64,000 nt of DNA, from positions 389,608,001-389,672,000 of the forward strand of contig OZ024741.1 in NCBI GenBank assembly GCA_964016885.1, written 5' to 3'. The notes under the pieces are model-generated. The model ran no database searches. It was given only the letters and a program-made list of their open reading frames with translations, and had not been told where the DNA came from. This stretch comes from Eledone cirrhosa. Taxonomy: Eukaryota. Of this stretch, positions 1 to 57,812 are shown piece after piece. A program made the translations under genes and the position numbers. How positions within the stretch are numbered: the first letter of the stretch is position 1; the number at the start of each line of letters is the position of its first letter.

Positions 1-3000
1 ACTACAACAGTACCACTACTCTAGACTACGGTACTCACCACTACTACAACAGTACCACTACTCTAGACTACGGTACTCACCACTACTACAACAGTACCAC
101 TACTGTAGACTATGGTACTCACCACTACTACAACAGCACCACTACTGTAGACTACGGTACTCACCACTACTACAACAGTACCACTACTGTAGACTATGGT
201 ACTCACCACTACTACAACAGTACCACTACTCTAGACTACGGTACTCACCACTACTACAACAGTACCACTACTGTAGACTACGGTACTCACCACTACTACA
301 ACAGTACCACTACTCTAGACTACGGTACTCACCACTACTACAACAGTACCACTACTGTAGACTATGGTACTCACCACTACTACAACAATACCACTACTCT
401 AGACTACGGTACTCACCACTACTACAACAGTACCACTACTGTAGACTATGGTACTCACCACTAATACAACAGTACCACTACTGTAGACTACGCTACTCAC
501 CACTACTACAACAGTACCACTACTGTAGACTATGGTACTCACCACTACTACAACAGTACCACTACTGTAGACTATGGTACTCACCACTACTACAACAGTA
601 CCACTACTCTAGACTACGGTACTCACCACTACTACAACAGTACCACTACTCTAGACTACCGAACTCACCACTACTACAACAGTACCACTACTGTAGACTA
701 CGGTACTCACCACTACTACAACAGTACCACTACTGTAGACTATGGTACTCACCACTACTACAACAGTACCACTACTGTAGACTATGGTACTCACCACTAC
801 TACAACAGTACCACTACTGTAGACTATGGTACTCACCACTACTACAACAGTACCACTAATATAGACTATGGTACTCACCACTACTACAACAGTACCACTA
901 CTCTAGACTACGGTACTCACCACTTCTACAACAGTACCACTACTCTAGACTACGGTACTCACCACTACTACAACAGTACCACTACTCTAGACTACGGAAC
1001 TCACCACTACTACAACAGTACCACTACTCTAGACTACGGTACTCACCACTACTACAACAGTACCACTACACTAGACTACGGAACTCACCACTACTACAAC
1101 AGTACCACTACTGTAGACTATGGTACTCACCACTACTACAACAGTACCACTACTGTAGACTACGGTACTCACCACTACTACAACAGTACCACTACCGTAG
1201 ACTATGGTACTCACCACTACTACAACAGTACCACTACTGTAGACTACGCTACTCACCACAACTACAACAGTACCACTACTGTAGACTACGCTACTCACCA
1301 CTACTACAACAGTACCACTACTGTAGACTACGCTACTCACCACTACTACAACAGTACCACTACTGTAGACTATGGTACTCACCACTACTACAACAGTACC
1401 ACTACTGTAGACTACGGTACTCACCACTACTACAACAGTACCACTACCATAGACTATGGTACTCACCACTACTACAACAGTACCACTAATGTAGACTACG
1501 GTACTCACCACTACTACAACAGTACCACTACTGTAGACTATGCTACTCACCACTACTACAACAGTACCACCACTGTAGACTATGGTACTCACCACCACTA
1601 CAACAGTACCACTACTGTAGACTATGGTACTCACCACTACTACAACATTACCACTACTGTAGACTACGGTACTCACCACTACTACAACAGTACCACTACT
1701 GTAGACTACGGTACTCACCACTACTACAACATTACCACTACTGTAGACTATGGTACTCACCACTACTACAACAGTACCACTACTCTAGACTTTGGTACTC
1801 ACCACTACTACAACAGTACCACTACTGTAGACTATGGTACTCACCACTACTACAACAGTACCACTACTCTAGACTATGATACTCACCACTACTACAACAG
1901 TACCACTACTCTAGACTATGGTACTCACCACTAATACAACAGTACCACTACTGTAGACTACGGTACTCACCACTACTACAACAGTACAACTACTGTAGAC
2001 TATGGTACTCACCACTACTACAACAGCAACTCTACTGTAGACTATGGTACTTACCACTACTACAACAGTACCACTACTCTAGACTACGGTACTCACCACT
2101 ACTAAAACAGTACCACTACTGTAGACTACGGTACTCACCACTACTAAAACAGTACCACTACTGTAGACTACGGTACTCACCACTACTACAACAGCAACTC
2201 TACTGTAGACTATGGTACTCACCACTACTACAACAGCAACTCTACTGTAGACTATGGTACTCACCACTACTACAACAGTACCACTACTCTAGACTACGGT
2301 ACTCACCACTACTAAAACAGTACCACTACTCTAGACTACAGTACTCACCACTACTACAACAGTACCACTACTGTAGACTACGGTACTCACCACTACTACA
2401 ACAGTACCACTACTCTAGACTACGGTACTCACCACTACTACAACAGTACCACTACTCTAGACTACGGAACTCACCACTACTACAACAGTACCACTACTGT
2501 AGACTACGGTACTCACCACTACTACAACAGTACCACTACTGTAGACTATGGTACTCACCACTACTACAACAGTACCACTACTGTAGACTATGGTACTCAC
2601 CACTACTACAACAGTACCACTACTCTAGACTACGGTACTCACCACTACTACAACAGTACCACTACTGTAGACTACGGTACTCACCACTACTACAACAGTA
2701 CCACTACTCTAGACTACGGTACTCACCACTACTACAACAGTACCACTACTGTAGACTATGGTACTCACCACTACTACAACAATACCACTACTCTAGACTA
2801 CGGTACTCACCACTACTACAACAGTACCACTACTGTAGACTATGGTACTCACCACTAATACAACAGTACCACTACTGTAGACTACGCTACTCACCACTAC
2901 TACAACAGTACCACTACTGTAGACTATGGTACTCACCACTACTACAACAGTACCACTACTGTAGACTATGGTACTCACCACTACTACAACAGTACCACTA

Positions 3001-6000
3001 CTCTAGACTACGGTACTCACCACTACTACAACAGTACCACTACTCTAGACTACGGAACTCACCACTACTACAACAGTACCACTACTGTAGACTACGGTAC
3101 TCACCACTACTACAACAGTACCACTACTGTAGACTATGGTACTCACCACTACTACAACAGTACCACTACTGTAGACTATGGTACTCACCACTACTACAAC
3201 AGTACCACTACTGTAGACTATGGTACTCACCACTACTACAACAGTACCACTACTGTAGACTATGGTACTCACCACTACTACAACAGTACCACTAATATAG
3301 ACTATGGTACTCACCACTACTACAACAGTACCACTACTCTAGACTACGGTACTCACCACTACTACAACAGTACCACTACTCTAGACTACGGTACTCACCA
3401 CTACTACAACAGTACCACTACTCTAGACTACGGAACTCACCACTACTACAACAGTACCACTACTCTAGACTACGGTACTCACCACTACTACAACAGTACC
3501 ACTACTGTAGACTATGGTACTCACCACTACTACAACAGTACCACTACTGTAGACTATGGTACTCACCACTACTACAACAGTACCACTACTCTAGACTACG
3601 GTACTCACCACTACTACAACAGTACTACTACTGTAGACTATGGTACTCACCACTACTACAACAGTACCACTACTGTAGATTATGGTACTCACCACTACTA
3701 CAACAGTACCACTAATGTAGACTATGGTACTCACCACTACTACAACAGTACCACTACCGTAGACTATGGTACTCACCACTACTACAACAGTACCACTACT
3801 CTAGACTACGGTACTCACCACTACTACAACAGCAACTCTACTGTAGACTATGGTACTCACCACTACTACAACAGTACCACTACTCTAGACTACGGTACTC
3901 ACCACTAATACAACAGTACCACTACTCTAGACTACGGTACTCACCACTACTACAACAGTACCACTACTGTAGACTATGGTACTCACCACTACTACAACAG
4001 TACCACTACACTAGACTACGGTACTCACCACTACTACAACAGTACGACTACACTAGACTACGGAACTCACCACTACTACAACAGTAACACTACTGTAGAC
4101 TACGGTACTCACCACTACTACAACATTACCACTACTGTAGACTACGGTACTCACCACTACTACAACAGTACCATTACTGTAGACTATGGTACTCACCACT
4201 ACTACAACATTACCACTACTGTAGACTACGGTACTCACCACTACTACAACAGTACCACTACTGTAGACTATGGTACTCACCACTACTACAACAGTACCAC
4301 TACTCTAGACTATGGTACTCACCACTACTACAACAATACCACTACTCTAGACTACGGTACTCACCACTACTACAACAGTACCACTACTGTAGACTACGGT
4401 ACTCACCACTACTACAACAGCAACTCTACTGTAGACTATGGTACTCACCACTACTACAACAGCAACTCTACTGTAGACTATGGTACTTACCACTACTACA
4501 ACAGTACCACTACTCTAGACTACGGTACTCACCACTACTAAAACAGTACCACTACTGTAGACTACGATACTCACCACTACTACAACAGCAACTCTACTGT
4601 AGACTATGGTACTCACCACTACTACAACAGCAACTCTACTGTAGACTATGGTACTCACCACTACTACAACAGTACCACTACTCTAGACTACGGTACTCAC
4701 CACTACTAAAACAGTACCACTACTCTAGACTACAGTACTCACCACTACTACAACAGTACCACTACTGTAGACTACGGTACTCACCACTACTACAACAGTA
4801 CCACTACTCTAGACTACGGTACTCACCACTACTACAACAGTACCACTACTCTAGACTACGGTACTCACCACTACTACAACAGTACCACTACTGTAGACTA
4901 TGGTACTCACCACTACTACAACAGCACCACTACTGTAGACTACGGTACTCACCACTACTACAACAGTACCACTACTGTAGACTATGGTACTCACCACTAC
5001 TACAACAGTACCACTACTCTAGACTACGGTACTCACCACTACTACAACAGTACCACTACTGTAGACTACGGTACTCACCACTACTACAACAGTACCACTA
5101 CTCTAGACTACGGTACTCACCACTACTACAACAGTACCACTACTGTAGACTATGGTACTCACCACTACTACAACAATACCACTACTCTAGACTACGGTAC
5201 TCACCACTACTACAACAGTACCACTACTGTAGACTATGGTACTCACCACTAATACAACAGTACCACTACTGTAGACTACGCTACTCACCACTACTACAAC
5301 AGTACCACTACTGTAGACTATGGTACTCACCACTACTACAACAGTACCACTACTGTAGACTATGGTACTCACCACTACTACAACAGTACCACTACTCTAG
5401 ACTACGGTACTCACCACTACTACAACAGTACCACTACTCTAGACTACGGAACTCACCACTACTACAACAGTACCACTACTGTAGACTACGGTACTCACCA
5501 CTACTACAACAGTACCACTACTGTAGACTATGGTACTCACCACTACTACAACAGTACCACTACTGTAGACTATGGTACTCACCACTACTACAACAGTACC
5601 ACTACTGTAGACTATGGTACTCACCACTACTACAACAGTACCACTAATATAGACTATGGTACTCACCACTACTACAACAGTACCACTACTCTAGACTACG
5701 GTACTCACCACTTCTACAACAGTACCACTACTCTAGACTACGGTACTCACCACTACTACAACAGTACCACTACTCTAGACTACGGAACTCACCACTACTA
5801 CAACAGTACCACTACTCTAGACTACGGTACTCACCACTACTACAACAGTACCACTACACTAGACTACGGAACTCACCACTACTACAACAGTACCACTACT
5901 GTAGACTATGGTACTCACCACTACTACAACAGTACCACTACTGTAGACTACGGTACTCACCACTACTACAACAGTACCACTACCGTAGACTATGGTACTC

Positions 6001-9000
6001 ACCACTACTACAACAGTACCACTACTGTAGACTACGCTACTCACCACAACTACAACAGTACCACTACTGTAGACTACGCTACTCACCACTACTACAACAG
6101 TACCACTACTGTAGACTACGCTACTCACCACTACTACAACAGTACCACTACTGTAGACTATGGTACTCACCACTACTACAACAGTACCACTACTGTAGAC
6201 TACGGTACTCACCACTACTACAACAGTACCACTAATGTAGACTACGGTACTCACCACTACTACAACAGTACCACTACTGTAGACTATGCTACTCACCACT
6301 ACTACAACAGTACCACCACTGTAGACTATGGTACTCACCACCACTACAACAGTACCACTACTGTAGACTATGGTACTCACCACTACTACAACATTACCAC
6401 TACTGTAGACTACGGTACTCACCACTACTACAACAGTACCACTACTGTAGACTACGGTACTCACCACTACTACAACATTACCACTACTGTAGACTATGGT
6501 ACTCACCACTACTACAACAGTACCACTACTCTAGACTTTGGTACTCACCACTACTACAACAGTACCACTACTGTAGACTATGGTACTCACCACTACTACA
6601 ACAGTACCACTACTCTAGACTATGATACTCACCACTACTACAACAGTACCACTACTCTAGACTATGGTACTCACCACTAATACAACAGTACCACTACTGT
6701 AGACTACGGTACTCACCACTACTACAACAGTACAACTACTGTAGACTATGGTACTCACCACTACTACAACAGTACCACTACTGTAGACTACGGTACTCAC
6801 CACTACTACAACAGTACAACTACTGTAGACTATGGTACTCACCACTACTACAACAGCAACTCTACTGTAGACTATGGTACTCACCACTACTACAACAGCA
6901 ACTCTACTGTAGACTATGGTACTCACCACTACTACAACAGCAACTCTACTGTAGACTATGGTACTCACCACTACTACAACAGTACCACTACTCTAGACTA
7001 CGGTACTCACCACTACTACAACAGTAACAATACTCTAGACTATGGTACTCACCACTACTACAACAGTAGCACTACTGTAGACTATGGTACTCACTACTAC
7101 TACAACAGTACCACTACTCTAGACTATGGTACTCACCACTACTACAACAGTACCACTACTGTAGACTATGGTACTCACCACTACTACAACAGTACCACTA
7201 CTGTAGACTATGGTACTCACCACTACTACCACAGTACCACTACTCTAGACTACGGTACTCACCACTACTACAACAGTACAACTACTGTAGACTACGGTAC
7301 TCACCACTACTACAACAGTACCACTGCTGTAGACTATGGTACTGACCACTACTACAACAGTACCACTACTCTAGACTACGGTACTCACCACTACTACAAC
7401 AGTACCACTAATGTAGACTATGGTACTCACCACTACTACAACAGTACCACTACTGTAGACTACGGTACTCACCACTACTACAACAGTACCACTACTGTAG
7501 ACTACGGTTCTCACCACTACTACAACAGTACCACTACTGTAGACTACGGTTCTCACCACTACTACAACAGTACCACTACTCTAGTCTACGGTACTCACCA
7601 CTACTACAACAGTACCACCACTGTAGACTATGGTACTCACCACCACTACAACAGTACCACTACTCTAGACTATGGTACTCACCACTACTACAACAGTACC
7701 ACTACTGTAGACTATGGTACTCACCATAACTACAACAGTACCACTACTGTAGACTATGGTACTCACCACTACTACAACAGTACCACTACTGTAGACTACG
7801 GTACTCACCACAACTACAACAGTACCACTACTGTAGACTATGGTACTCACCATAACTACAACAGTACCACTACTGTAGACTACGGTACTCACCACTACTA
7901 CAACAGTACCACTACTCTAGACTATGGTACTCACCACTACTACAACAGTACCACTACTGTAGACTACGGTACTCACCACAACTACAACAGTACCACTACT
8001 GTAGACTATGGTACTCACCACTACTACAACAGTACCACTACTGTAGACTACGCTACTCACCACTACTACAACAGTACCACTACTGTAGACTACGGTACTC
8101 ACCACTACTACAACAGTACCACTACTGTAGACTACGGTACTCACCACTACTACAACAGTACCACTACTCTAGACTATGGTACTCACCACTACTACAACAG
8201 TACCACTACTGTAGACTACGGTACTCACCACAACTACAACAGTACCACTACTGTAGACTACGGTTCTCACCACAACTACAACAGTACCACTACTGTAGAC
8301 TACGGTACTCACCACAACTACAACAGTACCACTACTGTAGACTATGGTACTCACCACTACTACAACAGTACCACTACTGTAGACTACGCTACTCACCACT
8401 ACTACAACAGTACCACTGCTGTAGACTACGCTACTCACCACTACTACAACAGTACCACTACTGTAGACTATGGTACTCACCACTACTACAACAGTACCAC
8501 TACTGTAGACTACGCTACTCACCACTACTACAACAGTACCACTACTGTAGACTACGGTACTCACCACTACTACAACAGTACCACTACTGTAGACTACGGT
8601 ACTCACCACTACTACAACAGTACCACTACTGTAGACTATGGTACTCACCACTACTACAACAGTACCACTACTGTAGACTACGGTACTCACCACTACTACA
8701 ACAGCAACTCTACTGTAGACTATGGTACTCACCACTACTACAACAGTACCACTACTGTAGACTACGGTACTCACCACTACTACAACAGTACCACTACTGT
8801 AGACTACGGTTCTCACCACTACTACAACAGTACCACTACTGTAGACTACGGTACTCACCACTACTACAACAGTACCACTACTGTAGACTACGGTACTCAC
8901 CACTACTACAACAGTACCACTGCTGTAGACTATGGTACTCACCACTACTACAACAGAACCACTACTGTAGACTATGGTACTCACCACTACTACAACAGTA

Positions 9001-12000
9001 CCACTACTGTAGACTATGGTACTCACCACTACTACAACAGTACCACTACTGTAGACTATGGTACTCACCACTACTACAACAGTACCACTACTGTAGACTA
9101 CGGTACTCACCACTACTACAACAGCAACTCTACTGTAGACTATGGTACTCACCACTACTACAACAGTACCACTACTGTAGACTACGGTACTCACCACTAC
9201 TACAACAGTACCACTACTGTAGACTACGGTTCTCACCACTACTACAACAGTACCACTACTGTAGACTACGGTACTCACCACTACTACAACAGTACCACTA
9301 CTGTAGACTATGGTACTCACCACTACTACAACAGTACCACTACTGTAGACTATGGTACTCACCACTACTACAACAGTACCACTACTGTAGACTACGGTAC
9401 TCACCACTACTACAACAGTACCACTACTGTAGACTACGGTACTCACCACTACTACAACAGTACCACTACTGTAGACTACGGTACTCACCACTACTACAAC
9501 AGCAATTCTACTGTAGACTATGGTACTCACCACTACTACAACAGCAACTCTACTGTAGACTATGGTACTCACCACTACTACAACAGTACCACTACTCTAG
9601 ACTACGGTACTCACCACTACTAAAACAGTACCACTACTCTAGACTATGGTACTCACCACTACTACAACAGTACCACTACTGTAGGCTATGGTACTCACCA
9701 CTACTACAACAGTACCACTACTCTAGACTACGGTACTCACCACTACTACAACAGTACCACTACTGCAGACTATGGTACTCACCACTACTACAACAGTACA
9801 ACTACTGTAGACTATGGTACTCACCACTACTACAACAGTACCACTACTCTAGACTACAGTACTCACCACTACTACAACAGTACCACTACTGTAGACTACG
9901 CTACTCACCACTACTACAACAGTACCACTACTGTAGACTATGGTACTCACCACTACTACAACAGTACAACTACTGTAGACTATGGTACTCACCACTACTA
10001 CAACAGTACCACTACTGTAGACTACGGTACTCACCACTACTACAACAGCAACTCTACTGTAGACTATGGTACTCACCACTACTACAACAGTACCACTACT
10101 GTAGACTACGGTACTCACCACTACTACAACAGTACCACTACTGTAGACTACGGTACTCACCACTACTACAACAGTACCACTACTGTAGACTACGGTACTC
10201 ACCACTACTACAACAGTACCACTACTGTAGACTATGGTACTCACCACTACTACAACAGTACCACTACTGTAGACTATGGTACTCACCACTACTACAACAG
10301 TACCACTACTGTAGACTACGGTACTCACCACTACTACAACAGCAACTCTACTGTAGACTATGGTACTCACCACTACTACAACAGTACCACTACTGTAGAC
10401 TACGGTACTCACCACTACTACAACAGTACCACTACTGTAGACTACGGTACTCACCACTACTACAACAGTACCACTACTGTAGACTATGGTACTCACCACT
10501 ACTACAACAGTACCACTACTGTAGACTACTGTACTCACCACTACTACAACAGTACCACTACTGTAGACTATGGTACTCACCACTACTACAACAGTACCAC
10601 TACTGTAGACTACGGTACTCACCACTACTACAACAGCAACTCTACTGTAGACTATGGTACTCACCACTACTACAACAGTACCACTACTGTAGACTACGGT
10701 ACTCACCACTACTACAACAGTACCACTACTGTAGGCTACGGTACTCACCACTACTACAACAGTACCACTACTGTAGACTATGGTACTCACCACTACTACA
10801 ACAGTACCACTACTGTAGACTACGGTACTCACCACTACTACAACAGCAACTCTACTGTAGACTATGGTACTCACCACTACTACAACAGTACCACTACTGT
10901 AGACTACGGTACTCACCACTACTACAACAGTACCACTACTGTAGACTACGGTTCTCACCACTACTACAACAGTACCACTACTGTAGACTATGGTACTCAC
11001 CACTACTACAACAGTACCACTACTGTAGACTATGGTACTCACCACTACTACAACAGTACCACTACTCTAGACTATGGTACTCACCACTACTACAACAGTA
11101 CCACTACTGTAGACTACGCTACTCACCACTACTACAACAGTACCACTACTGTAGACTACGGTACTCACCACTACTACAACAGTACCACTACTGTAGACTA
11201 TGGTACTCACCACTACTACAACAGTACCACTACTGTAGACTACGGTACTCACCACTACTACAACAGTACCACTACTGTAGACTATGGTACTCACCACTAC
11301 TACAACAGTACCACTACTGTAGACTACGGTACTCACCACTACTACAACAGCAACTCTACTGTAGACTATGGTACTCACCACTACTACAACAGTACCACTA
11401 CTGTAGACTACGGTATTCACCACTACTACAACAGCAACTCTACTGTAGACTACGGTACTCACCACTACTACAACAGTACCACTACTCTAGACTACGGTAC
11501 TCACCACTACTACAACAGTACAACTACTGTAGACTACGGTACTCACCACTACTACAACAGCAACTCTACTGTAGACTATGGTACTCACCACTTCTACAAC
11601 AGCAACTCTACTGTAGACTATGGTACTCACCACTACTACAACAGCAACTCTACTGTAGACTATGGTACTCACCACTACTACAACAATACCACTACTCTAG
11701 ACTACGGTACTCACCACTACTACAACAGTACCACTACTGTAGACTATGGTACTCACCACTACTACAACAGTACCACTACTGTAGACTATGGTACTCACCA
11801 CTACTAAAACAGTACCACTACTCTAGACTACGGTACTCACCACTACTACAACAGTACCACTACTGTAGACTACGGTACTCACCACTACTACAACAGCAAT
11901 TCTACTGTAGACTATGGTACTCACCACTACTACAACAGCAACTCTACTGTAGACTGTGGTACTCACCACTACTACAACAGTACCACTACTCTAGACTACG

Positions 12001-15000
12001 GTACTCACCACTACTAAAACAGTACCACTACTCTAGACTACAGTACTCACCACTACTACAACAGTACCACTACTGTAGACTACGGTACTCACCACTACTA
12101 CAACAGTACCACTACTCTAGACTATGGTACTCACCACTACTACAACAGTACCACTACTGTAGGCTATGGTACTCACCACTACTACAACAGTACCACTACT
12201 CTAGACTACGGTACTCACCACTACTACAACAGTACCACTACTGCAGACTATGGTACTCACCACTACTACAACAGTACAACTACTGTAGACTATGGTACTC
12301 ACCACTACTACAACAGTACCACTACTCTAGACTACAGTACTCACCACTACTACAACAGTACCACTACTGTAGACTACGCTACTCACCACTACTACAACAG
12401 TACCACTACTGTAGACTATGGTACTCACCACTACTACAACAGTACAACTACTGTAGACTATGGTACTCACCACTACTACAACAGTACCACTACTGTAGAC
12501 TACGGTACTCACCACTACTACAACAGTACCACTACTGTAGACTATGGTACTCACCACTACTACAACAGTACCACTACTCTAGACTACGGTACTCACCACT
12601 ACTACAACAGTACCACTAATGTAGACTATGGTACTCACCACTACTACAACAGTACCACTACTCTAGACTACGGTACTCACCACTACTACAACAGTACCAC
12701 TACTCTAGACAACGGAACTCACCACAACTACAACAGTACCACTACTCTAGACTACGGTACTCACCACTACTACAACAGTACCACTACACTAGACTACGGA
12801 ACTCACCACTACTACAACAGTACCACTACTGTAGACTATGGTACTCACCACTACTACAACAGTACCACTACTGTAGACTACGGTACTCACCACTACTACA
12901 ACAGTACCACTACTGTAGACTACGCTACTCACCACTACTACAACAGTACCACTACTGTAGACTACGCTACTCACAACTACTACAGCAGTACCACTACTCT
13001 AGACTATGGTACTCACCACTACTACAACAGTACCACTACTCTAGACTATGGTACTCACCACTACTACAACAGTAGCACTACTGTAGACTATGGTACTCAC
13101 CACTACTACAACAGCACCACTACTGTAGACTACGGTACTCACCACTAATACAACAGTACCACTACTGTAGACTACGGTACTCACCACTACTACAACAGTA
13201 GCACTACTGTAGACTATGGTACTCACTACTACTACAACAGTACCACTACTCTAGACTATGGTACTCACCACTACTACAACAGTACCACTACTCTAGACTA
13301 TGGAACTCACCACTACTACAACAGTACCACTACTGTAGTCTATGGTACTCACCACTACTACAACAGCACCACTACTGTAGACTACGGTACTCACCACTAC
13401 TACAGCAGTACCAGTACTGTAGACTACGGTACTCACCACTACTACAACAGCACCACTACTGTAGACTACGGTACTCACCACCACTACAACAGTACCACTA
13501 CTGTAGACTACGGTACTCACCACTACTACAACAGTACCACTACTGTAGACTATGGTACTCACCACTACTACAACAGTACCACTACTCTAGACTACGGTAC
13601 TCACCACTACTACAACAGTACCACTAATGTAGACTATGGTACTCACCACTACTACAACGGTACCACTACTCTAGACTACGGTACTCACCACTACTACAAC
13701 AGTACCACTACTGTAGACTATGGTACTCACCACTACTACAACAGTACCACTACTGTAGACTATGGTACTCACCACTACTACAACAGTACCACTACTGTAG
13801 ACTACGGTACTCACCACTACTACAGCAGTACCACTACCGTAGACTATGGTACTCACCACTACTACAACAGTACCACTACTGTAGACTACGGTACTCACCA
13901 CTACTACAGCAGTACCACTACTGTAGACTACGGTACTCACCACTACTACAACAGTACAACTACTGTAGACTATGGTACTCACCACTACTACAACAGTACC
14001 ACTACTGTAGACTATGGTACTCACCACTACTACAACAGTACCACTACTGTAGACTATGGTACTCACCACTACTACAACAGTACCACTACTCTAGACTACG
14101 GTATTGACCACTACTACAATAGTACCACTACTCTAGACTACGGTACTCACCACTACTACAACAGTACAACTACTGTAGACTACGGTACTCACCACTACTA
14201 CAACAGTACCACTACTCTAGACTACGGTACTCACCACTACTACAACAGTACAACTACTGTAGACTACGGTACTCACCACTACTACAACAGTACCACTACT
14301 CTAGACTACGGTACTCACCACTACTACAACAGTACAACTACTGTAGACTACGGTACTCACCACTACTACAACAGTACCACTACTCTAGACTACGGAACTC
14401 ACCACTACTACAACAGTACCACTACTGCAGACTATGGTACTCACCACTACTACAACAGTACCACTACTGTAGACTACGGTACTCACCACTACTACAACAG
14501 TACCACTACCGTAGACTATGGTACTCACCATTACTACAACAGTACCACTACAGTAGACTATGGTACTCACCACTACTACAACAGTACCACTACTGTAGAC
14601 TATGGTACTCACCACTACTACAACAGTACCACTACAGTAGACTATGGTACTCACCACTACTACAACAGTACCACTAATGTAGACTACGGTACTCACCACT
14701 ACTACAACAGTACAACTACTGTAGACTATGGTACTCACCACTACTACAACAGTACCACTACTGTAGACTATGGTACTCACCACTACTACAACAGTACCAC
14801 TACAGTAGACTATGGTACTCACCACTACTACAACAGTACCACTAATGTAGACTACGGTACTCACCACTACTACAACAGTACAACTACTGTAGACTATGGT
14901 ACTCACCACTACTACAACAGTACCACTACTCTAGACTATGGTACTCACCACTACTACAACGGTACCACTACTCTAGACTACGCTACTCACCACTACTACA

Positions 15001-18000
15001 ACAGTACCACTACTCTAGACTATGGTACTCACCACTACTACAACAGTACCACTACTGTAGACTACGCTACTCACCACAACTACAACAGTACCACTACTGT
15101 AGACTACGCTACTCACAACTACTACAACAGTACCACTACTGTAGACTACGGTACTCACCACTACTACAACAGTACCACTACTGTAGACTACGCTACTCAC
15201 CACAACTACAACAGTACCACTTCTGTAGACTACGGTACTCACCACTACTACAACAGTACCACTACTGTAGACTACGCTACTCACAACTACTACAACAGTA
15301 CCACTACTGTAGACTATGGTACTCACCACTACTACAACAGTACCACTACTGTAGACTACGGTACTCACCACAACTACAACAGTACCACTACTGTAGACTA
15401 CGCTACTCACAACTACTACAACAGTACCACTACTGTAGACTACGCTACTCACCACAACTACAACAGTACCACTACTGTAGACTACGCTACTCACAACTAC
15501 TACAACAGTACCACTACTGTAGACTACGCTACTCACCACTACTACAACAGTACCACTACTGTAGACTACGGTACTCACCACTACTACAACAGTACCACTA
15601 ATGTAGACTACGGTACTCACCACTACTACAACAGTACCACTACCGTAGACTATGGTACTCACCACTACTACAACAGTACCACTAATGTAGACTACGGTAC
15701 TCACCACTACTACAAAAGTACCACTACTGTAGACTACGGTACTCACCACTACTACAACAGTACCACTACTGTAGACTACGGTACTCACCACTACTACAAC
15801 ATTACCACTACTGTAGACTATGGTACTCACCACTACTACAACAGTACCACTACTCTAGACTACGGTACTCACCACTACTACAACAGTACCACTACTCTAG
15901 ACTATGGTACTCACCACTACTACAACAGTACCACTACTCTAGACTACGGTACTCACCACTACTACAACAGTACCACTACTCTAGACTATGGTACTCACCA
16001 CTACTACAACAGTACCACTACTCTAGACTACGCTACTCACCACTACTACAACAGTACCACCACTGTAGACTATGGTACTCACCACCACTACAACAGTACC
16101 ACTACTGTAGACTATGGTACTCACCACTACTACAAAAGTACCACTACTGTAGACTACGGTACTCACCACTACTACAACAGTACCACTACTGTAGACTACG
16201 GTACTCACCACTACTACAACATTACCACTACTGTAGACTATGGTACTCACCACTACTACAACAGTACCACTACTCTAGACTATGGTACTCACCACTACTA
16301 CAACAGTACCACTACTGTAGACTATGGTACTCACCACTACTACAACAGTACCACTACTGTAGACTATGGTACTCACCACTACTACAACAGTACCACTACT
16401 CTAGACTATGGTACTCACCACTACTACAACAGTACCACCACTGTAGACTATGGTACTCACCACTACTACAACAGTACCACTACTCTAGACTAGGTACTCA
16501 CCACTACTACAACAGTACCACTACTGTAGACTATGGTACTCACCACTACTACAACAGTACCACTACTCTAGACTATGGTACTCACCACTACTACAACAGT
16601 ACCACTACTGTAGACTATGGTACTCACCACTACTACAACAGTACCACTACTCTAGACTATGGTACTCACCACTACTACAACAGTACCACTACTCTAGACT
16701 GTGGTACTCACCACTACTACAACAGTACCACTACTGTAGACTACGGTACTCACCACTACTACAACAGTACCATTACTCTAGACTATGGTACTCACCACTA
16801 CTACAACAGCACCACTACTGTAGACTACGGTACTCACCACTACTACAGCAGTACCACTACTGTAGACTACGGTACTCACCACTACTACAACAGCACCACT
16901 ACTGTAGACTATGGTACTCACCACTACTACAACAGTACCACTACTCTAGACTACGGTACTCACCACTACTACAACAGTACAACTACTGTAGACTATGGTA
17001 CTCACCACTACTACAACAGTACCACTAATGTAGACTATGGTACTCACCACTACTACAACAGTACCACTGCTGTAGACTATGGTACTCACCACTACTACAA
17101 CAGTACAACTACTGTAGACTATGGTACTCACCACTACTACAGCAGTACCACTACTGTAGACTACGGTACTCACCACTACTACAACAGTACCACTAATGTA
17201 GACTATGGTACTCACCACTACTACAACGGTACCACTACTCTAGACTACGGTACTCACCACTACTACAACAGTACAACTACTGTAGACTATGGTACTCACC
17301 ACTACTACAACAGTACCACTACTCTAGACTACGGTACTCACCACTACTACAACAGTACCACTACTGTAGACTAGGCTACTCACCACTACTACAACAGTAC
17401 CACTACTGTAGACTATGGTACTCACCACTACTACAACAGTACCACTACTCTAGACTATGGTACTCACCACTACTACAACAGTACCACTACTGTAGACTAC
17501 GGTACTCACCACTACTACAACAGTACCACTACTGTAGACTATGCTACTCACCACTACTACAACAGTACCACTACTGTAGACTATGGTACTCACCACTACT
17601 ACAACAGTACCACTACTCTAGACTACGGTACTCACCACTACTACAACAGTACCACTACTGTAGACTATGGTACTCACCACTACTACAACAGTACCACTAC
17701 TGTAGACTACGGTACTCACCACTTCTACAACAGTACCACTACTGTAGACTACGGTACTCACCACTACTACAACAGTACCACTACTGTAGACTACGGTACT
17801 CACCACTACTACAACAGTACCACTACTGTAGACTATGGTACTCACCAATACTGTAGACTACGGTACTCACCACTACTACAACAGTACCACTACTGTAGAC
17901 TACGGTACTCACCACTACTACAACAGTACCACTACTGTAGACTATGGTACTCACTACTACTACAACAGTACCACTACTGTAGACTATGGTACTCATCACT

Positions 18001-21000
18001 ACTACTACAGTACCACTACTCTAGACTACGGTACTCACCACTACTACAACAGTACCACTACTGTAGACTACGGTACTCACCACTACTGCAACAGTGCCAC
18101 TACTGTAGACTACGGTACTCACCACTACTACAACAGTACCACTACTCTAGACTATGGTACTCACCACTACTACAACAGTACCACTACTGTAGACTATGGT
18201 ACTCACCACTACTACAACAGTACCACTACTCTAGACTATGGTACTCACCACTACTACAACAGTACCACTACTCTAGACTATGGTACTCACCACTACTACA
18301 ACAGTACCACTACTGTAGACTATGGTACTCACCACCACTACAACAGTACCACTACTGTAGACTACGGTACTCACCACTACTACAACAGTACCACTACTCT
18401 AGACTATGGTACTCACCACTACTGTAGACTATGGTACTCACCACTACTACAACAGTACCACTACTCTAGACTATGGAACTCACCACTACTACAACAGTAC
18501 CACTACTCTAGACTACGGTACTCACCACTACTACAACAGTACCACTACTGTAGACTATGGTACTCACCACTACTGTAGACTACGGTACTCACCACTACTA
18601 CAACAGTACCACTACTGTAGACTATGGTACTCACTACTACTACAACAGTACCACTACTGTAGACTATGGTACTCACCACTACTGTAGACTACGGTACTCA
18701 CCACTACTACAACAGTACCACTACTGTAGACTATGGTACTCACCACTACTACAACAGTACCACTACTCTAGACTATGGTACTCACTACTACTACAACAGT
18801 ACCACTACTGTAGACTATGGTACTCACCACTACTGTAGACTACGGTACTCACCACTACTACAACAGTACCACTACTGTAGACTATGGTACTCACCACTAC
18901 TGTAGACTACGGTACTCACCACTACTACAACAGTACCACTACTGTAGACTATGGTACTCACCACTACTACAACAGTACCACTACTCTAGACTATGGTACT
19001 CACTACTACTACAACAGTACCACTACTGTAGACTATGGTACTCACCACTACTGTAGACTACGGTACTCACCACTACTACAACAGTACCACTACTGTAGAC
19101 TATGGTACTCACCACTACTGTAGACTACGGTACTCACCACTACTACAACAGTACCACTGCTGTAGACTATGGTACTCACCACTACTGTAGACTATGGTAC
19201 TCACCACTACTACAACAGTACCACTACTCTAGACTACGGTACTCACCACTACTACAACAGTACCACTACTGTAGACTATGGTACTCACCACTACTGTAGA
19301 CTACGGTACTCACCACTACTACAACAGTACCACTACTGTAGACTATGGTACTCACCACTACTACAACAGTACCACTACTCTAGACTACGGTACTCACCAC
19401 TACTACAACAGTACCACTACTGTAGACTATGGTACTCACCACTACTGTAGACTACGGTACTCACCACTACTACAACAGTACCACTACTGTAGACTATGGT
19501 ACTCACCACTACTACAACAGTACCACTACTCTAGACTACGGTACTCACCACTACTACAACAGTACCACTACTGTAGACTACGGTACTCACCACTACTACA
19601 ACAGTACCACTACTCTAGACTATGGTACTCACCACTACTACAACAGTACCACTACTGTAGACTATGGTACTCACCACTACTACAACAGTACCACTACTGT
19701 AGACTATGGTACTCACCACTACTACAACAGTACCACTACTCTAGACTATGGTACTCACCACTACTACAACAGTACCACTACTGTAGACTATGGTACTCAC
19801 CACCACTACAACAGTACCACTACTGTAGACTACGGTACTCACGACTACTACAACAGTACCACTACTCTAGACTATGGTACTCACCACTACTGTAGACTAT
19901 GGTACTCACCACTACTACAACAGTACCACTACTCTAGACTATGGTACTCACCACTACTACAACAGTACCACTACTCTAGACTACGGTACTCACCACTACT
20001 ACAACAGTACCACTACTCTAGCCTACGGTACTCACCACTACTACAACAGTACAACTACTGTAGACTACGGTACTCACCACTACTACAACAGTACCACTAC
20101 TGTAGACTATGGTACTCACCACTACTGTAGACTACGGTACTCACCACTACTACAACAGTACCACTACTGTAGACTATGGTACTCACTACTACTACAACAG
20201 TACCACTACTGTAGACTATGGTACTCACCACTACTACTACAGTACCACTACTCTAGACTACGGTACTCACCACTACTACAACAGTACCACTACTGTAGAC
20301 TACGGTACTCACCACTACTACAACAGTACCACTACTGTAGACTATGGTACTCACCACTACTGCAACAGTACCACTACTGTAGACTACGGTACTCACCACT
20401 ACTACAACAGTACCACTACTCTAGACTATGGTACTCACCACTACTACAACAGTACCACTACTGTAGACTATGGTACTCACCACTACTACAACAGTACCAC
20501 TACTGTAGACTATGGTACTCACCACTACTACAACAGTACCACTACTCTAGACTATGGTACTCACCACTACTACAACAGTACCACTACTGTAGACTATGGT
20601 ACTCACCACTACTACAACAGTACCACCACTGTAGACTATGGTACTCACCACCACTACAACAGTACCACTACTGTAGACTATGGTACTCACCACTACTACA
20701 ACAGTACCACTACTGTAGACTATGGTACTCACCACTACTACAACAGTACCACTACTGTAGACTACGGTACTCACCACTACTACAACAGTACCACTACTCT
20801 AGACTACAGTACTCACCACTACTACAACAGTACCACTACTGTAGACTACGGTACTCACCACTTCTACAACAGTACCACTACTGTAGACTACGGTACTCAC
20901 CACTACTACAACAGTACCACTACTGTAGACTACGGTACTCACCACTACTACAACAGTACCACTACTGTAGACTATGGTACTCACCAATACTGTAGACTAC

Positions 21001-23382
21001 GGTACTCACCACTACTACAACAGTACCACTACTGTAGACTACGGTACTCACCACTACTACAACAGTACCACTACTGTAGACTATGGTACTCACTACTACT
21101 ACAACAGTACCACTACTGTAGACTATGGTACTCACCACTACTACTACAGTACCACTACTCTAGACTACGGTACTCACCACTACTACAACAGTACCACTAC
21201 TGTAGACTACGGTACTCACCACTACTACAACTGTACCACTACTGTAGACTGTGGTACTCACCACTACTGCAACAGTACCACTACTGTAGACTACGGTACT
21301 CACCACTACTACAACAGTACCACTACTCTAGACTATGGTACTCACCACTACTACAACAGTACCACTACTGTAGACTATGGTACTCACCACCACTACAACA
21401 GTACCACTACTGCAGACTACGGTACTCACCACTACTACAACAGTACCACTACTCTAGACTATGGTACTCACCACTACTGTAGACTATGGTACTCACCACT
21501 ACTACAACAGTACCACTACTCTAGACTATGGTACTCACCACTACTACAACAGTACCACTACTCTAGACTACGGTACTCACCACTACTACAACAGTACCAC
21601 TACTCTAGCCTACGGTACTCACCACTACTACAACAGTACAACTACTGTAGACTACGGTACTCACCACTACTACAACAGTACCACTACTGTAGACTATGGT
21701 ACTCACCACTACTACAACAGTACCACTACTGTAGACTACGCTACTCACCACTACTACAACAGTACCACTACTCTAGACTATGGTACTCACTACTACTACA
21801 ACAGTACTACTACTGTAGACTATGGTACTCACCACTACTACTACAGTACCACTACTCTAGACTACGGTACTCACCACTACTACAACAGTACCACTACTGT
21901 AGACTACGGTACTCACCACTACTACAACAGTACCACTACTGTAGACTATGGTACTCACCACTACTGCAACAGTACCACTACTGTAGACTACGGTACTCAC
22001 CACTACTACAACAGTACCACTACTCTAGACTATGGTACTCACCACTACTACAACAGTACCACTACTGTAGACTATGGTACTCACCACTACTACAACAGTA
22101 CCACTACTGTAGACTATGGTACTCACCACTACTACAACAGTACCACTACTCTAGACTATGGTACTCACCACTACTACAACTGTACCACTACTGTAGACTA
22201 TGGTACTCACCACCACTACAACAGTACCACTACTGTAGACTACGGTACTCACCACTACTACAACAGTACCACTACTCTAGACTATGGTACTCACCACTAC
22301 TGTAGACTATGGTACTCACCACTACTACAACAGTACCACTACTCTAGACTATGGTACTCACCACTACTACAACAGTACCACCACTGTAGACTATGGTACT
22401 CACCACCACTACAACAGTACCACTACTGTAGACTATGGTACTCACCACTACTACAACAGTACCACTACTGTAGACTATGGTACTCACCTCTACTACAACA
22501 GTACCACTACTGTAGACTACGGTACTCACCACTACTACAACAGTACCACTACTCTAGACTACAGTACTCACCACTACTACAACAGTACCACTACTGTAGA
22601 CTACGGTACTCACCACTACTACAACAGTACCACTACTGTAGACTATGGTACTCACTACTACTACAACAGTACCACTACTGTAGACTATGGTACTCACCAC
22701 TACTACAACAGTACCACTACTCTAGACTACGGTATTCACCACTACTACAACAGTACCACTACTGTAGACTATGGTACTCACCACTACTACAACAGTACCA
22801 CTACTCTAGACTATGGTACTCACCACCACTACAACAGTACCACTACTGTAGACTATGGTACTCACCACTACTACAACAGTACCACTACTGTAGACTACGG
22901 TACTCACCACTACTACAACAGTACCACTACTCTAGACTATGGTACTCACCACTACTACAACAGTACCACTACTCTAGACTATGGTACTCACCACCACTAC
23001 AACAGTACCACTACTCTAGACTATGGTACTCACCACTACTACAACAGTACCACTACTGTAGACTACGGTACTCACCACTACTACAACAGTACCACTACTC
23101 TAGACTATGGTACTCACCACTACTACAACAGTACCACTACTGTAGACTATGGTACTCACCACCACTACAACAGTACCACTACTCTAGACTATGGTACTCA
23201 CCACTACTACAACAGTACCACTACTGTAGACTATGGTACTCACCACTACTACAACAGTACCACTACTCTAGACTATGGTACTCACCACTACTACAACAGT
23301 ACCACTATTGTAGACTATGGTACTCACCACTACTACAACAGTACCACTACTCTAGACTATGGTACTCACCACCACTACAACA
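1..23382. repeat. 42-bp tandem satellite, about 550-560 units, running off the left window edge; consensus ACTACAACAGTACCACTACT(G/C)TAGACTA(C/T)GGTACTCACCACT
   Basis: Direct reading shows an uninterrupted 42-bp period with point variants, a 1-bp deletion near 16492 and about 16 shortened 25-bp units between 17835 and 22310. The array ends at ...ACTACAACA 23382. Confidence 0.99.
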
Positions 23383-23413
23383 AGAGTAAGAGTAATATGT
23401 TGCTATATCTTAC

Positions 23414-23483
23414 CTTACACTTAAACGTCTTCATGTCTAACAATTGGTAATCAAAGCGATCCACAATATTTTTCATCCAATCC
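23414..23483 (-). CDS. Host gene coding exon F (70 nt, phase 2 to 0): (E)DWMKNIVDRFDYQLLDMKTFKCK
   Basis: Acceptor ttttttttctttag|G and donor AAG|gtaaga. It completes the GA left by exon 37279-37185 (GAG) with no stop. Confidence 0.85.
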
Positions 23484-23559
23484 CTAAAGAAAAAAAATCT
23501 CTTAATAGATAAACATCTTCAGACAGACACATAAGTTAGTGTTAATGTTTTTATTGCAT

Positions 23560-23632
23560 GGAACATTGGATAGAAATAACTTCCCATTGTGATATCTCTG
23601 GTATAACATTTTCTCAAAATAGATGTATTCAT
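23560..23632 (+). pseudogene. Degenerate C2H2 zinc-finger remnant, left half (HCDISGITFSQNRCIH)
   Basis: Resembles HCDICGKSFSQ-type fingers and joins to TGEKP at 26552 once the RTE insertion is removed. Confidence 0.55.
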
Positions 23633-26539: not shown

Positions 26540-26760
26540 AGATGTACTCGTACAGGAGAAAAACCAAATTACTGTGATGTCTGTGATAAAACATCATTTT
26601 CTAGTAACTCTTTAGATATATTACAAATGTATTTTCACAAGGGAGAAACTATACTACTGTGATTTATGTAATAGAAAATTCTCTTGAAGTGATTATTTAT
26701 TAACCTACAAATGTTTAAACATGTGGGAACAAACTATCTGATATTTGTGGCAAAAGTATT
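26540..26760 (+). pseudogene. Degenerate C2H2 zinc-finger remnant, right half (TGEKPNYCDVCDK... EKLYYCDLCNRKFS*... DICGKS)
   Basis: TGEKP linker plus CxxC pairs, broken by stops and frameshifts. Confidence 0.65.
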
Positions 26761-26859
26761 AAGTGTGTTGGTGCTTTTATTACATGGAACATTTGAAAGT
26801 TAGCTAGAAATAAACAAGAACAACCTGCCGTCCTCTATATATCATCATAAGCTGAAATC

Positions 26860-37184: not shown

Positions 37185-37279
37185 TCAAGAGATGTTATAC
37201 GGTTAGATAAAGCTGCTAAAATGGCAAACAGCTTGAAGTCTGCTCCGTCCTCAATATTGTAGCCTGTCATTTCAATTAT
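37185..37279 (-). CDS. Host gene coding exon E (95 nt, phase 0 to 2): IIEMTGYNIEDGADFKLFAILAALSNRITSL
   Basis: Acceptor gtattttgtag|ATA and donor CTTGA|gtgagt; phases fit both neighbouring exons. Confidence 0.88.
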
Positions 37280-46467: not shown

Positions 46468-46572
46468 CCTATACAGATATTCTTCTTTAGATGCTGTTAA
46501 TTGATTGTTTATCGACCTTAATCCCAGCATCATTTCCTGTGTTGTCAACCAACCTTTTTTATCAACATCCCC
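46468..46572 (-). CDS. Host gene coding exon D (105 nt, phase 0 to 0): GDVDKKGWLTTQEMMLGLRSINNQLTASKEEYLYR, EF-hand loop
   Basis: Acceptor ttttgttttatttatag|GGG and donor AGG|gtaagt; 12-residue loop D-V-D-K-K-G-W-L-T-T-Q-E. Confidence 0.92.
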
Positions 46573-53784: not shown

Positions 53785-54084
53785 AGTCCTCGAAATGGGG
53801 TCCTCGGGTTTCATTCTTGGCCATCTTCAACATTTTCTTTTGATTCATTTTATCCATCAGCTTCTTTCGCCTTCTTTCTGCTGCTTCTAATGGGTCAAAA
53901 TATTCCATGTGTCCCCGAAATTTACCATATTTCAATGACTCCACCGTTGCTGTGGACTTAATACTTTGGATTGTTGACTTATTTTTTCTCTTCTTGTAGT
54001 TTTCGGTGTTGAGACTAGCCATTGTAGGGAGTTGGTTATATGATGGAGTTGCATTTAATTCCTCTTCTTTTTCTTCTGAATCTG
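53785..54084 (-). CDS. Host gene coding exon B (300 nt, phase 1 to 1): (T)DSEEKEEELNATPSY...FDPLEAAERRRKKLMDK...RGPHFED
   Basis: NAGNAG acceptor tttgcag|CAG and donor GACT|gtaagt. T+AT gives Tyr at the junction with exon C. Confidence 0.82.
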
Positions 54085-57670: not shown

Positions 57671-57812
57671 TGTCATTTGAAGAAATGAAGACATTTTCAT
57701 CAGTGACGTTTTCTGTAATTCCAGGTTTGGACTCTGGCACTGACTGTTTGACTCTTTCCTTTACAGATTTGGATAACTGCTTCAACGCGACTGTCTTTCG
57801 GTTCAAAGGAAG
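57671..57812 (-). CDS. Host gene coding exon A (142 nt, phase 0 to 1): LPLNRKTVALKQLSKSVKERVKQSVPESKPGITENVTDENVFISSND
   Basis: Acceptor tttattttcatttcag|CTT and donor GACA|gtcagt; phase matches exon B; non-TE island between repeats. Confidence 0.68.

What the first reader, a model, noticed from the sequence alone, without database searches (positions are those of the whole stretch)
1..23413. A >23-kb satellite array sits inside an intron, 31 nt from the splice donor
Seen: exon 23483-23414 (minus) ends AAG|gtaaga with the frame still open, and the 42-bp array starts at 23382 and runs past the window edge. Inference: if the gene is expressed, Pol II must cross at least 23 kb of pure satellite and make a long GU-rich repeat RNA. 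Established parallel: the satellite-filled giant introns of Drosophila Y-linked fertility genes.
Basis: partly seen in the sequence, partly recalled or inferred. Interest (0 to 1): 0.72.

Follow-up and report, generated by a model that had tools for sequence, protein, structure and literature searches.

The report
Giant minisatellite intron with decoy donors
An 83,000-base run of one 42-base repeat fills 98% of the last intron of an intact, single-copy octopus-type gene and carries about 1,900 look-alike splice signals that the cell likely ignores; repeat blocks of this size are common in this genome, so it is likely a tolerated local expansion rather than a special gene programme.

Summary
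Real, and larger than reported. The 42-bp array is 82,854 bp, gap-free and at one locus. It fills 97.6% of an 84,928-nt last intron. The in-phase terminal exon lies 2 kb beyond it, and 13 exons splice to an unbroken 623-aa frame colinear with Octopus sinensis LOC115219818, an uncharacterised EF-hand-like protein. New here: each unit carries a strong donor motif on the gene's strand (about 1,800 sites predicted to pair with U1 as well as the true donor) and the array has no poly(A) hexamer. The motif is not copied from the exon junction and may be chance (p about 0.02-0.09). The layout is ordinary for this genome: 13 of 100 spaced 10-kb samples are mostly tandem array, four followed up span 59-290 kb, and one fills an intron of the only MAD2 gene found. 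The closest known case is avian intron 'sequence stuttering' and human intronic VNTRs, not Drosophila Y-loops. Expression, splicing, array length in reads and length variation are untested. The scan noted similar introns elsewhere in this genome.

The parts
1..23382 (.). Right 23.4 kb of an 82,854-bp, single-locus 42-bp minisatellite array (continues left to C2:389,548,529); 1,953 full units, 273 unit types, mean 3.7% from consensus, kb-scale block duplications
1..23413 (-). 5' part of the last intron (84,928 nt in all). It ends at the acceptor of the terminal exon, C2:389,546,485-389,546,255, outside the window (76 codons and a stop)
23383..23413 (-). True donor (AAG|gtaaga) and 31-nt unique spacer; read on in frame it reaches a stop 13 codons into the intron
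23364..23369 (-). First decoy donor GTGAGT (intron position 45); the motif recurs every 42 nt, 1,934 GTRAGT in the array
23414..23483 (-). Penultimate coding exon, 70 nt
37185..37279 (-). Coding exon, 95 nt; its real donor is itself TGA|GTGAGT
46468..46572 (-). Coding exon, 105 nt, EF-hand-like loop
47859..47929 (-). Coding exon, 71 nt
53785..54084 (-). Coding exon, 300 nt, tandem NAGNAG acceptor
57671..57812 (-). Coding exon, 142 nt; six more exons lie right of the window, up to window-equivalent 94,518

Best explanation
A private 42-bp minisatellite fills 97.6% of the last intron of an intact single-copy gene; it likely grew in place by repeated unit and block duplication and is likely tolerated, Pol II reading through it and the spliceosome joining the first donor to the terminal exon 85 kb away. 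Shown: anatomy, single locus, intact frame, block duplications, about 1,900 donor motifs, no AATAAA/ATTAAA in the array, and many other arrays of this size in the genome. Inferred: growth by slippage and unequal exchange; transcription; use of the upstream donor, as shown for the F7 VNTR pseudo-donors; decoys stay silent because the unit has no pyrimidine-tract acceptor to define a pseudo-exon. The donor motif is most likely a chance property of the seed, harmless or mildly helpful.
For: Terminal exon in phase; no residue missing across the junction against 10 of 10 homologues aligned. 13 exons give 623 codons without a stop, 414 of 618 identical to O. sinensis; last 190 residues 89% identical, bivalves and worms 60-66%. 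Terminal exon single-copy. 374 of 374 genome matches of a 32-mer and 1,331 of 1,335 of a 19-mer lie in this array. Near-identical blocks at lags of 1.2-12.7 kb. Unit not similar to the exon, junctions or flanks (shuffle p 0.09-0.91). The six AGs of the unit have 7-9 pyrimidines in 19 upstream bases against 10-14 at six real acceptors. Base rate: 13 of 100 samples at least 70% array, 14.7% of bases; four followed arrays 59, 84, 151 and about 282-296 kb; MAD2 intron 60,354 nt with a 59,290-nt array. No donor enrichment in 23 sampled array units (0 at -9.5 kcal/mol or better, 0.71 expected).
Against: No transcript was seen. The donor motif is stronger than most shuffles give (0.019 of base shuffles; 0.03-0.09 of triplet shuffles), lies on the gene's strand (best on the other strand -4.1), and its T is invariant in 1,953 units, though the 7-base core ranks only 5th of 42 windows for conservation. 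Host exons on both sides were recognised for only 1 of 4 followed arrays, so how many arrays are intronic is not measured. Array length was not measured outside the assembly.
Confidence: 0.7

Rival explanations
1. The array is a functional U1-loading track: about 23 donor motifs per kb and no poly(A) hexamer would hold U1 on the nascent RNA, guard against premature cleavage, slow splicing or seed a splicing-factor condensate (as LL2R does), so array length would tune output or a truncated isoform.
For: Motif predicted to pair with the genome's own U1 at -10.6 against -9.5 kcal/mol for the true donor; 1,814 sites at -9.5 or better including the true donor; 23.3 GTRAGT per kb against 0.17-0.78 in four other introns and 0.46 in the 1-Mb sample; 0 hexamers against 1.8 per kb. 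Seven hexamers lie in the 2-kb tail before the acceptor. Use of any of the first three decoys gives a stop and loses the last 76 residues. LL2R precedent.
Against: Chance level of 2-9% in a genome with many arrays; no enrichment in 23 sampled units; 22 of those 23 also lack a hexamer on both strands, so its absence is unremarkable; decoys are predicted mostly base-paired (unpaired probability about 0.01, like four of five real donors); no significant conservation of the core.
Confidence: 0.12
2. The gene copy is silenced or recently dead: the array became heterochromatic or blocks elongation, and the intact frame is only a lag.
For: An 83-kb homogeneous array 31 nt from a donor is a plausible silencing target (general knowledge). 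The array looks young (3.7% spread).
Against: Single copy of a gene conserved from molluscs to amphioxus and fish; all 13 exons and splice sites intact; the only MAD2 gene found carries a like array.
Confidence: 0.08
3. The array length or the joins are an assembly artefact.
For: Tandem arrays are hard to assemble; some blocks are 99.8% identical over 2.1 kb; length was not checked in reads.
Against: No N in 264 kb; consecutive exons flank the array in the right order and orientation; 273 unit types; longest exact internal repeat 1,637 bp. Three DNA runs of one sample, possibly the assembly's own, hold a 365-nt contig that matches 23383-23685 and runs 62 letters past the junction side; those letters were not shown.
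Confidence: 0.07
4. Y-loop-type programme: a germline-specific gene whose satellite intron is part of a dedicated spermatocyte expression system.
For: Satellite fills over 97% of the intron; the protein is an uncharacterised EF-hand-like protein whose tissue is unknown.
Against: 85 kb, not megabases; private 42-bp unit, not a shared simple satellite; 1 of 12 introns affected; same layout in MAD2.
Confidence: 0.03

Closest known systems
Avian 'sequence stuttering', intronic type (Hron et al. 2026, PMC12954441; abstract, first parts of sections 7, 8 and 9 read)
   Same: Locally expanded unit of tens of bases confined to one intron, of intronic origin, coding exons intact; also affects intergenic DNA.
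   Different: The chicken example intron is 1.6-2.9 kb against 85 kb here; chicken cases sit on GC-rich dot chromosomes, this one on a 416-Mb chromosome at 44% GC; units here are far more regular (3.7% spread); length variation, a defining feature, is untested here.
Human F7 intron 7 37-bp VNTR and ABCA7 intron 18 25-bp VNTR (PMC1557585, abstract; PMC5954066, passages); amphioxus 'mirages' (PMC3087553, passages)
   Same: Tandem pseudo-donors right behind the true donor; in F7 the most upstream donor wins, in ABCA7 one unit is sometimes retained.
   Different: There the unit is a copy of the exon-intron boundary. Here it starts 31 nt inside the intron and is not similar to the junction. ABCA7 reaches 10.7 kb, about 427 units, against 1,953.
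Human CACNA1C intronic 30-bp VNTR TRACT (PMC13131567, abstract)
   Same: Single-locus intronic minisatellite of 3 to over 30 kb made of unit variants, in an expressed gene.
   Different: Array here is about three times longer and abuts the donor; no allele or expression data here.
Chicken LL2R repeat array (bioRxiv 10.64898/2026.03.19.712899; abstract and section 29 read)
   Same: Tandem RNA with donors in excess of acceptors and few poly(A) signals.
   Different: LL2R is a non-coding unit driven by a retrotransposon promoter, with over 5 predicted donors per 2 kb; here about 46 per 2 kb (another predictor) inside a coding gene; no condensate shown here.
Drosophila Y-loop genes kl-3, kl-5, ks-1 (PMC6508621 introduction; PMC11207136 abstract)
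   Same: Intron made almost wholly of tandem repeat that must be transcribed.
   Different: Megabase introns, simple shared satellites, Y-linked, spermatocyte-only, dedicated RNA-binding proteins; none shown here and the first two are not met.

Membership tests
Intronic sequence stuttering (Hron 2026) | Intron filled by locally expanded direct repeats of tens to hundreds of bases | tested here: met
   82,854 of 84,928 nt, 42-bp unit
Intronic sequence stuttering (Hron 2026) | Repeat confined to one intron, coding exons intact | tested here: met
Intronic sequence stuttering (Hron 2026) | Local origin (unit not found elsewhere) | tested here: met
   374 of 374 and 1,331 of 1,335 matches local; no pre-expansion ortholog available
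Intronic sequence stuttering (Hron 2026) | Extensive length variation within the species | not testable with these tools
   one assembly; no long reads served
Exon stuttering, mirages, F7-type VNTR | Unit is a copy of the exon-intron boundary | tested here: not met
   no similarity above shuffles to the exon, donor or acceptor regions; array starts 31 nt into the intron
Exon stuttering, mirages, F7-type VNTR | Tandem pseudo-donors downstream of the true donor | tested here: met
   1,934 GTRAGT, first at intron position 45
Exon stuttering, mirages, F7-type VNTR | mRNA spliced at the first donor | not testable with these tools
   no RNA run available for this gene
Drosophila Y-loop gigantic-intron genes | Megabase-scale introns | tested here: not met
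   84,928 nt; the other 11 introns 1.3-15.5 kb
Drosophila Y-loop gigantic-intron genes | Short simple satellites shared with heterochromatin | tested here: not met
   private 42-bp unit at one locus
Drosophila Y-loop gigantic-intron genes | Sex-chromosome linkage, spermatocyte-only expression, loop and dedicated RNA-binding proteins | not testable with these tools
   no expression, cytology or chromosome labels
LL2R-type architectural repeat RNA | Donor excess over acceptors, poly(A) signals depleted | tested here: met
   (own simple predictors)
LL2R-type architectural repeat RNA | Stand-alone non-coding transcription unit | tested here: not met
   lies inside a coding gene
LL2R-type architectural repeat RNA | Nascent RNA recruits snRNPs into a condensate | not testable with these tools
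   needs RNA-FISH with immunostaining

The most novel reading that the evidence does not exclude
This octopod genome is stuttering on a scale not described elsewhere: roughly a tenth of it lies in private 50-300-kb minisatellite arrays, some inside introns of single-copy genes including MAD2, all crossed by Pol II. This array, with about 1,900 U1 sites and no poly(A) signal, is a U1-loading RNA track inside a coding gene: it seeds a splicing-factor condensate at the locus and its length tunes full-length against truncated protein.
Probability: 0.12. Interest if true: 0.75.

Novelty: new member of a known kind. Interest (0 to 1): 0.42.

Why it matters
As a single locus it is a very large case of a known kind: an intronic tandem array that an intact gene apparently tolerates. 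Its value is as a test object: about 1,900 evenly spaced strong pseudo-donors behind one true donor make an extreme natural test of first-donor selection and of U1 protection in long introns. The wider result is the base rate: arrays of 59-290 kb with private units are common in this genome and one fills a MAD2 intron, which would extend bird-type intron stuttering to cephalopods at tens of times the size and affect intron-length estimates and gene annotation there. Three literature searches listed no paper whose title or abstract start describes this in cephalopods; subscription papers and supplements were not covered.

Tried and rejected
Expression: the run search listed six runs, no RNA holder listed; three unlabelled runs behaved as genomic DNA when laid. 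The repeat side of the junction and the array length in reads remain unmeasured. Coding repeat on the plus strand: two frames of the unit are open and open stretches reach 2,469 codons, but one frame has 32 stops in 1,953 units, most of the 28 irregular units shift frame, and no start or splice context was seen; rejected. Coding on the gene's strand: longest open stretch 475 codons, about 1,900 or more stops per frame; rejected. Origin from the exon junction: no similarity. Recursive splicing or pseudo-exons: no pyrimidine-tract AG motif in the array and only 2 AG-GT joint motifs; a pseudo-exon from the unit's CAG would start with a stop. G-quadruplex or UG-repeat binding: 9 GGG and 44 TGTG in 83 kb. 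Selection on the donor core: rank 5 of 42 windows, inconclusive. General donor enrichment in arrays: 0 of 23 units from 19 stretches. Protein identity: Pfam gave only a sub-threshold EF-hand hit in 1 of 6 proteins; no solved relative under E 0.5; Atlas leads at 0.9 or below for the domain; six locus names found in 0 papers. Rfam: 0 hits in 22000-64000. A HORMA family search missed the MAD2 exons, so the single-copy call for MAD2 rests on one exon query. A first exon chain used a wrong donor at the 57.8-kb exon and was corrected.

Full report
Observation. The window is C2:389,608,001-389,672,000 of a 3.0-Gb genome; the best protein matches are from Octopus, so I call it octopod-like. Bases 1-23382 are one tandem array of period 42 (554 copies). 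The 70-nt exon at 23483-23414 (minus) ends AAG|gtaaga, 31 nt from the array.

Extent and make-up. The 200 kb to the left show the array running on to C2:389,548,529: 82,854 bp, no N, one orientation. It has 1,953 full units, 28 short or irregular units and no foreign insertion; 273 unit types; mean 3.7% from consensus. All 374 genome matches of a 32-mer and 1,331 of 1,335 matches of a 19-mer lie in it, so it is a private minisatellite, not a satellite family. Blocks recur at lags of 1.2-12.7 kb, up to 99.8% identical over 2.1 kb; the longest exact repeat is 1,637 bp. This fits growth by unit and block duplication (inference).

Host gene. The next exon lies 2,043 nt past the array, at C2:389,546,485-389,546,255, with a T-rich acceptor, phase 0, 76 codons and a stop. 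It matched 71 of 142 candidate proteins, 86% to Octopus and mostly 70-79% to bivalves and worms. Aligned with 10 homologues, the spliced protein has no gap at this junction, so no exon is missing and the intron is 84,928 nt, 97.6% array. Thirteen exons give 623 codons without a stop, 414 of 618 identical to O. sinensis LOC115219818; the first exons were not traced. The other 11 introns are 1.3-15.5 kb. The terminal exon is single-copy. The C-terminal domain occurs in molluscs, annelids, nemerteans, a hemichordate, amphioxus and fish (95 of 720 candidates); it has a weak EF-hand match and no known function.

What the RNA would carry. The gene-sense strand is 66% G+U. Each unit holds GTG|GTGAGTAC. 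Against the 5' end of this genome's own U1 it scores -10.6 kcal/mol; the true donor scores -9.5 and the four upstream donors -5.4 to -10.0. There are 1,934 GTRAGT (23.3 per kb; 0.17-0.78 in four other introns; 0.46 in a 1-Mb sample) and no AATAAA or ATTAAA, while the 2-kb tail before the acceptor has seven. The unit has no good acceptor. Use of the first decoys adds a stop and drops the last 76 residues. The unit is not a copy of the junction (shuffle p 0.09-0.91). A site this strong arises in 1.9% of base shuffles and 3-9% of triplet shuffles; 0 of 23 sampled array units reach -9.5, 0.71 expected, and 22 of 23 lack a poly(A) hexamer too. The core is not clearly more conserved than the rest of the unit (rank 5 of 42). 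The repeat folds well (z -4.3), and decoys are predicted as paired as most real donors. I read the motif as probably chance.

Base rate. Of 100 evenly spaced 10-kb stretches (80 on C1-C4, 20 on C5-C15), 13 are at least 70% tandem array, and 14.7% of bases lie in arrays of 500 bp or more with period 7 or more. I followed five of the 13. One is a multi-locus family. Four have match counts that fit one locus each and span 59, 84, 151 and 282-296 kb. The 59-kb array lies between two consecutive MAD2 exons (human residues 26-73 and 75-110): a 60,354-nt intron with 59,290 nt of array, 173 nt from the acceptor; one MAD2 match in the genome. For two arrays no host exon was recognised (part of the output was cut); for the longest only one flank was read and it holds an exon-like cassette. 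So the size is typical here and an intronic position is not unique.

Artefact check. Flanking exons are consecutive and correctly oriented, there is no N, and units are diverse. Three DNA runs of one sample, possibly the assembly's own, hold a 365-nt contig that matches 23383-23685 and extends 62 letters past the junction side; those letters were not displayed. Length is unverified outside the assembly.

How it most likely works. A seed of triplet-like sequence just inside the intron likely expanded locally to about 1,970 units. If the gene is expressed, Pol II crosses 85 kb without a poly(A) hexamer until the last 2 kb; the true donor is defined with its exon and is met first, as in the F7 VNTR, where downstream pseudo-donors with higher U1 complementarity do not compete (abstract); decoys lack acceptors and stay silent. 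Shown: anatomy and motifs. Inferred: growth, transcription, splice choice. Confidence 0.7. Rivals: U1-loading function 0.12, silenced copy 0.08, misassembly 0.07, Y-loop programme 0.03.

Comparison. It works most like avian intronic sequence stuttering: three features met, length variation untested, size about 30 times the chicken example. It shares pseudo-donors with F7, ABCA7 and amphioxus mirages but fails their defining feature, a copied boundary. CACNA1C TRACT is a smaller human parallel. LL2R gives the precedent for donor-rich repeat RNA gathering splicing factors. Y-loop genes differ in scale, repeat type and, as far as testable, context. U1 protection against premature cleavage is recalled knowledge; one search gave only a listing. 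Repeat-class names for mobile elements in the window are recalled, not tested. Supplements were not read.

Novelty. Searches listed nothing on such arrays in cephalopods, judged from titles and abstract starts. The scan's own notes record several repeat-filled introns elsewhere in this genome, and one gave the lead to the bird paper. Verdict: real, a new and large member of a known kind; interest 0.42.

Noticed in passing
G000:C4:126,978,840-127,039,464 (L128:9540-9663, L096, L130:9318-9464): A 59,290-nt array of a private 28-bp unit fills a 60,354-nt intron between two consecutive exons of the only MAD2 match in the genome; 13 of 808 pattern matches are reversed.
   Followed up: yes
G000 samples L028-L127: 13 of 100 spaced 10-kb stretches are mostly tandem array, nearly each with its own unit (7-558 bp); followed arrays span 59-296 kb.
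   Followed up: partly
G000:C2:404,964,377 to about 405.25 Mb (L144, L067): A 33-bp array of about 285 kb begins some 130 nt after an exon-like cassette that resembles one in L112, possibly the mini-exon gene family noted by other agents.
   Followed up: partly
L127:1-1936 and 3593-3668: A 30-bp array ends about 1.65 kb from a glycosyltransferase-like exon (weak Pfam hit, E 0.044; ALG1-like from recall).
   Followed up: partly
window 1-23382, plus strand: Two reading frames of the unit are open; open stretches reach 2,469 codons of a Thr/Tyr/His-rich peptide with an N-S-T motif per unit. No sign of use.
   Followed up: partly
window 17850-22323: 16 shortened 25-bp units cluster near the donor end, against 3 in the other 78 kb: a local sub-domain of the array.
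   Followed up: partly
window 34.3-36.7 kb (+) and 60.6-63.4 kb (+): Two long, intact-looking LINE reading frames inside introns of the gene; decayed LINE pieces at 24.0-26.5, 27.2-29.4, 40.9-46.1 and 50.2-52.1 kb (classes from recall).
   Followed up: no
window 26,550-26,800 (+); L011:4360-4700 (-): Broken C2H2 zinc-finger-like remnants, one inside an intron and one downstream of the gene.
   Followed up: no
window 54084/54081, 57670, 47858: Tandem NAGNAG acceptor and two weak donors (GTCAGT, GTTTGT) in the host gene.
   Followed up: partly
G000:C2:180.97-181.00 Mb and C1128: U1 snRNA genes in tandem at a 2.67-kb period; 42 matches listed.
   Followed up: no
G000 C1-C5: Four chromosomes of 379-443 Mb and then a drop to 135 Mb and less, suggesting large fusions.
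   Followed up: no
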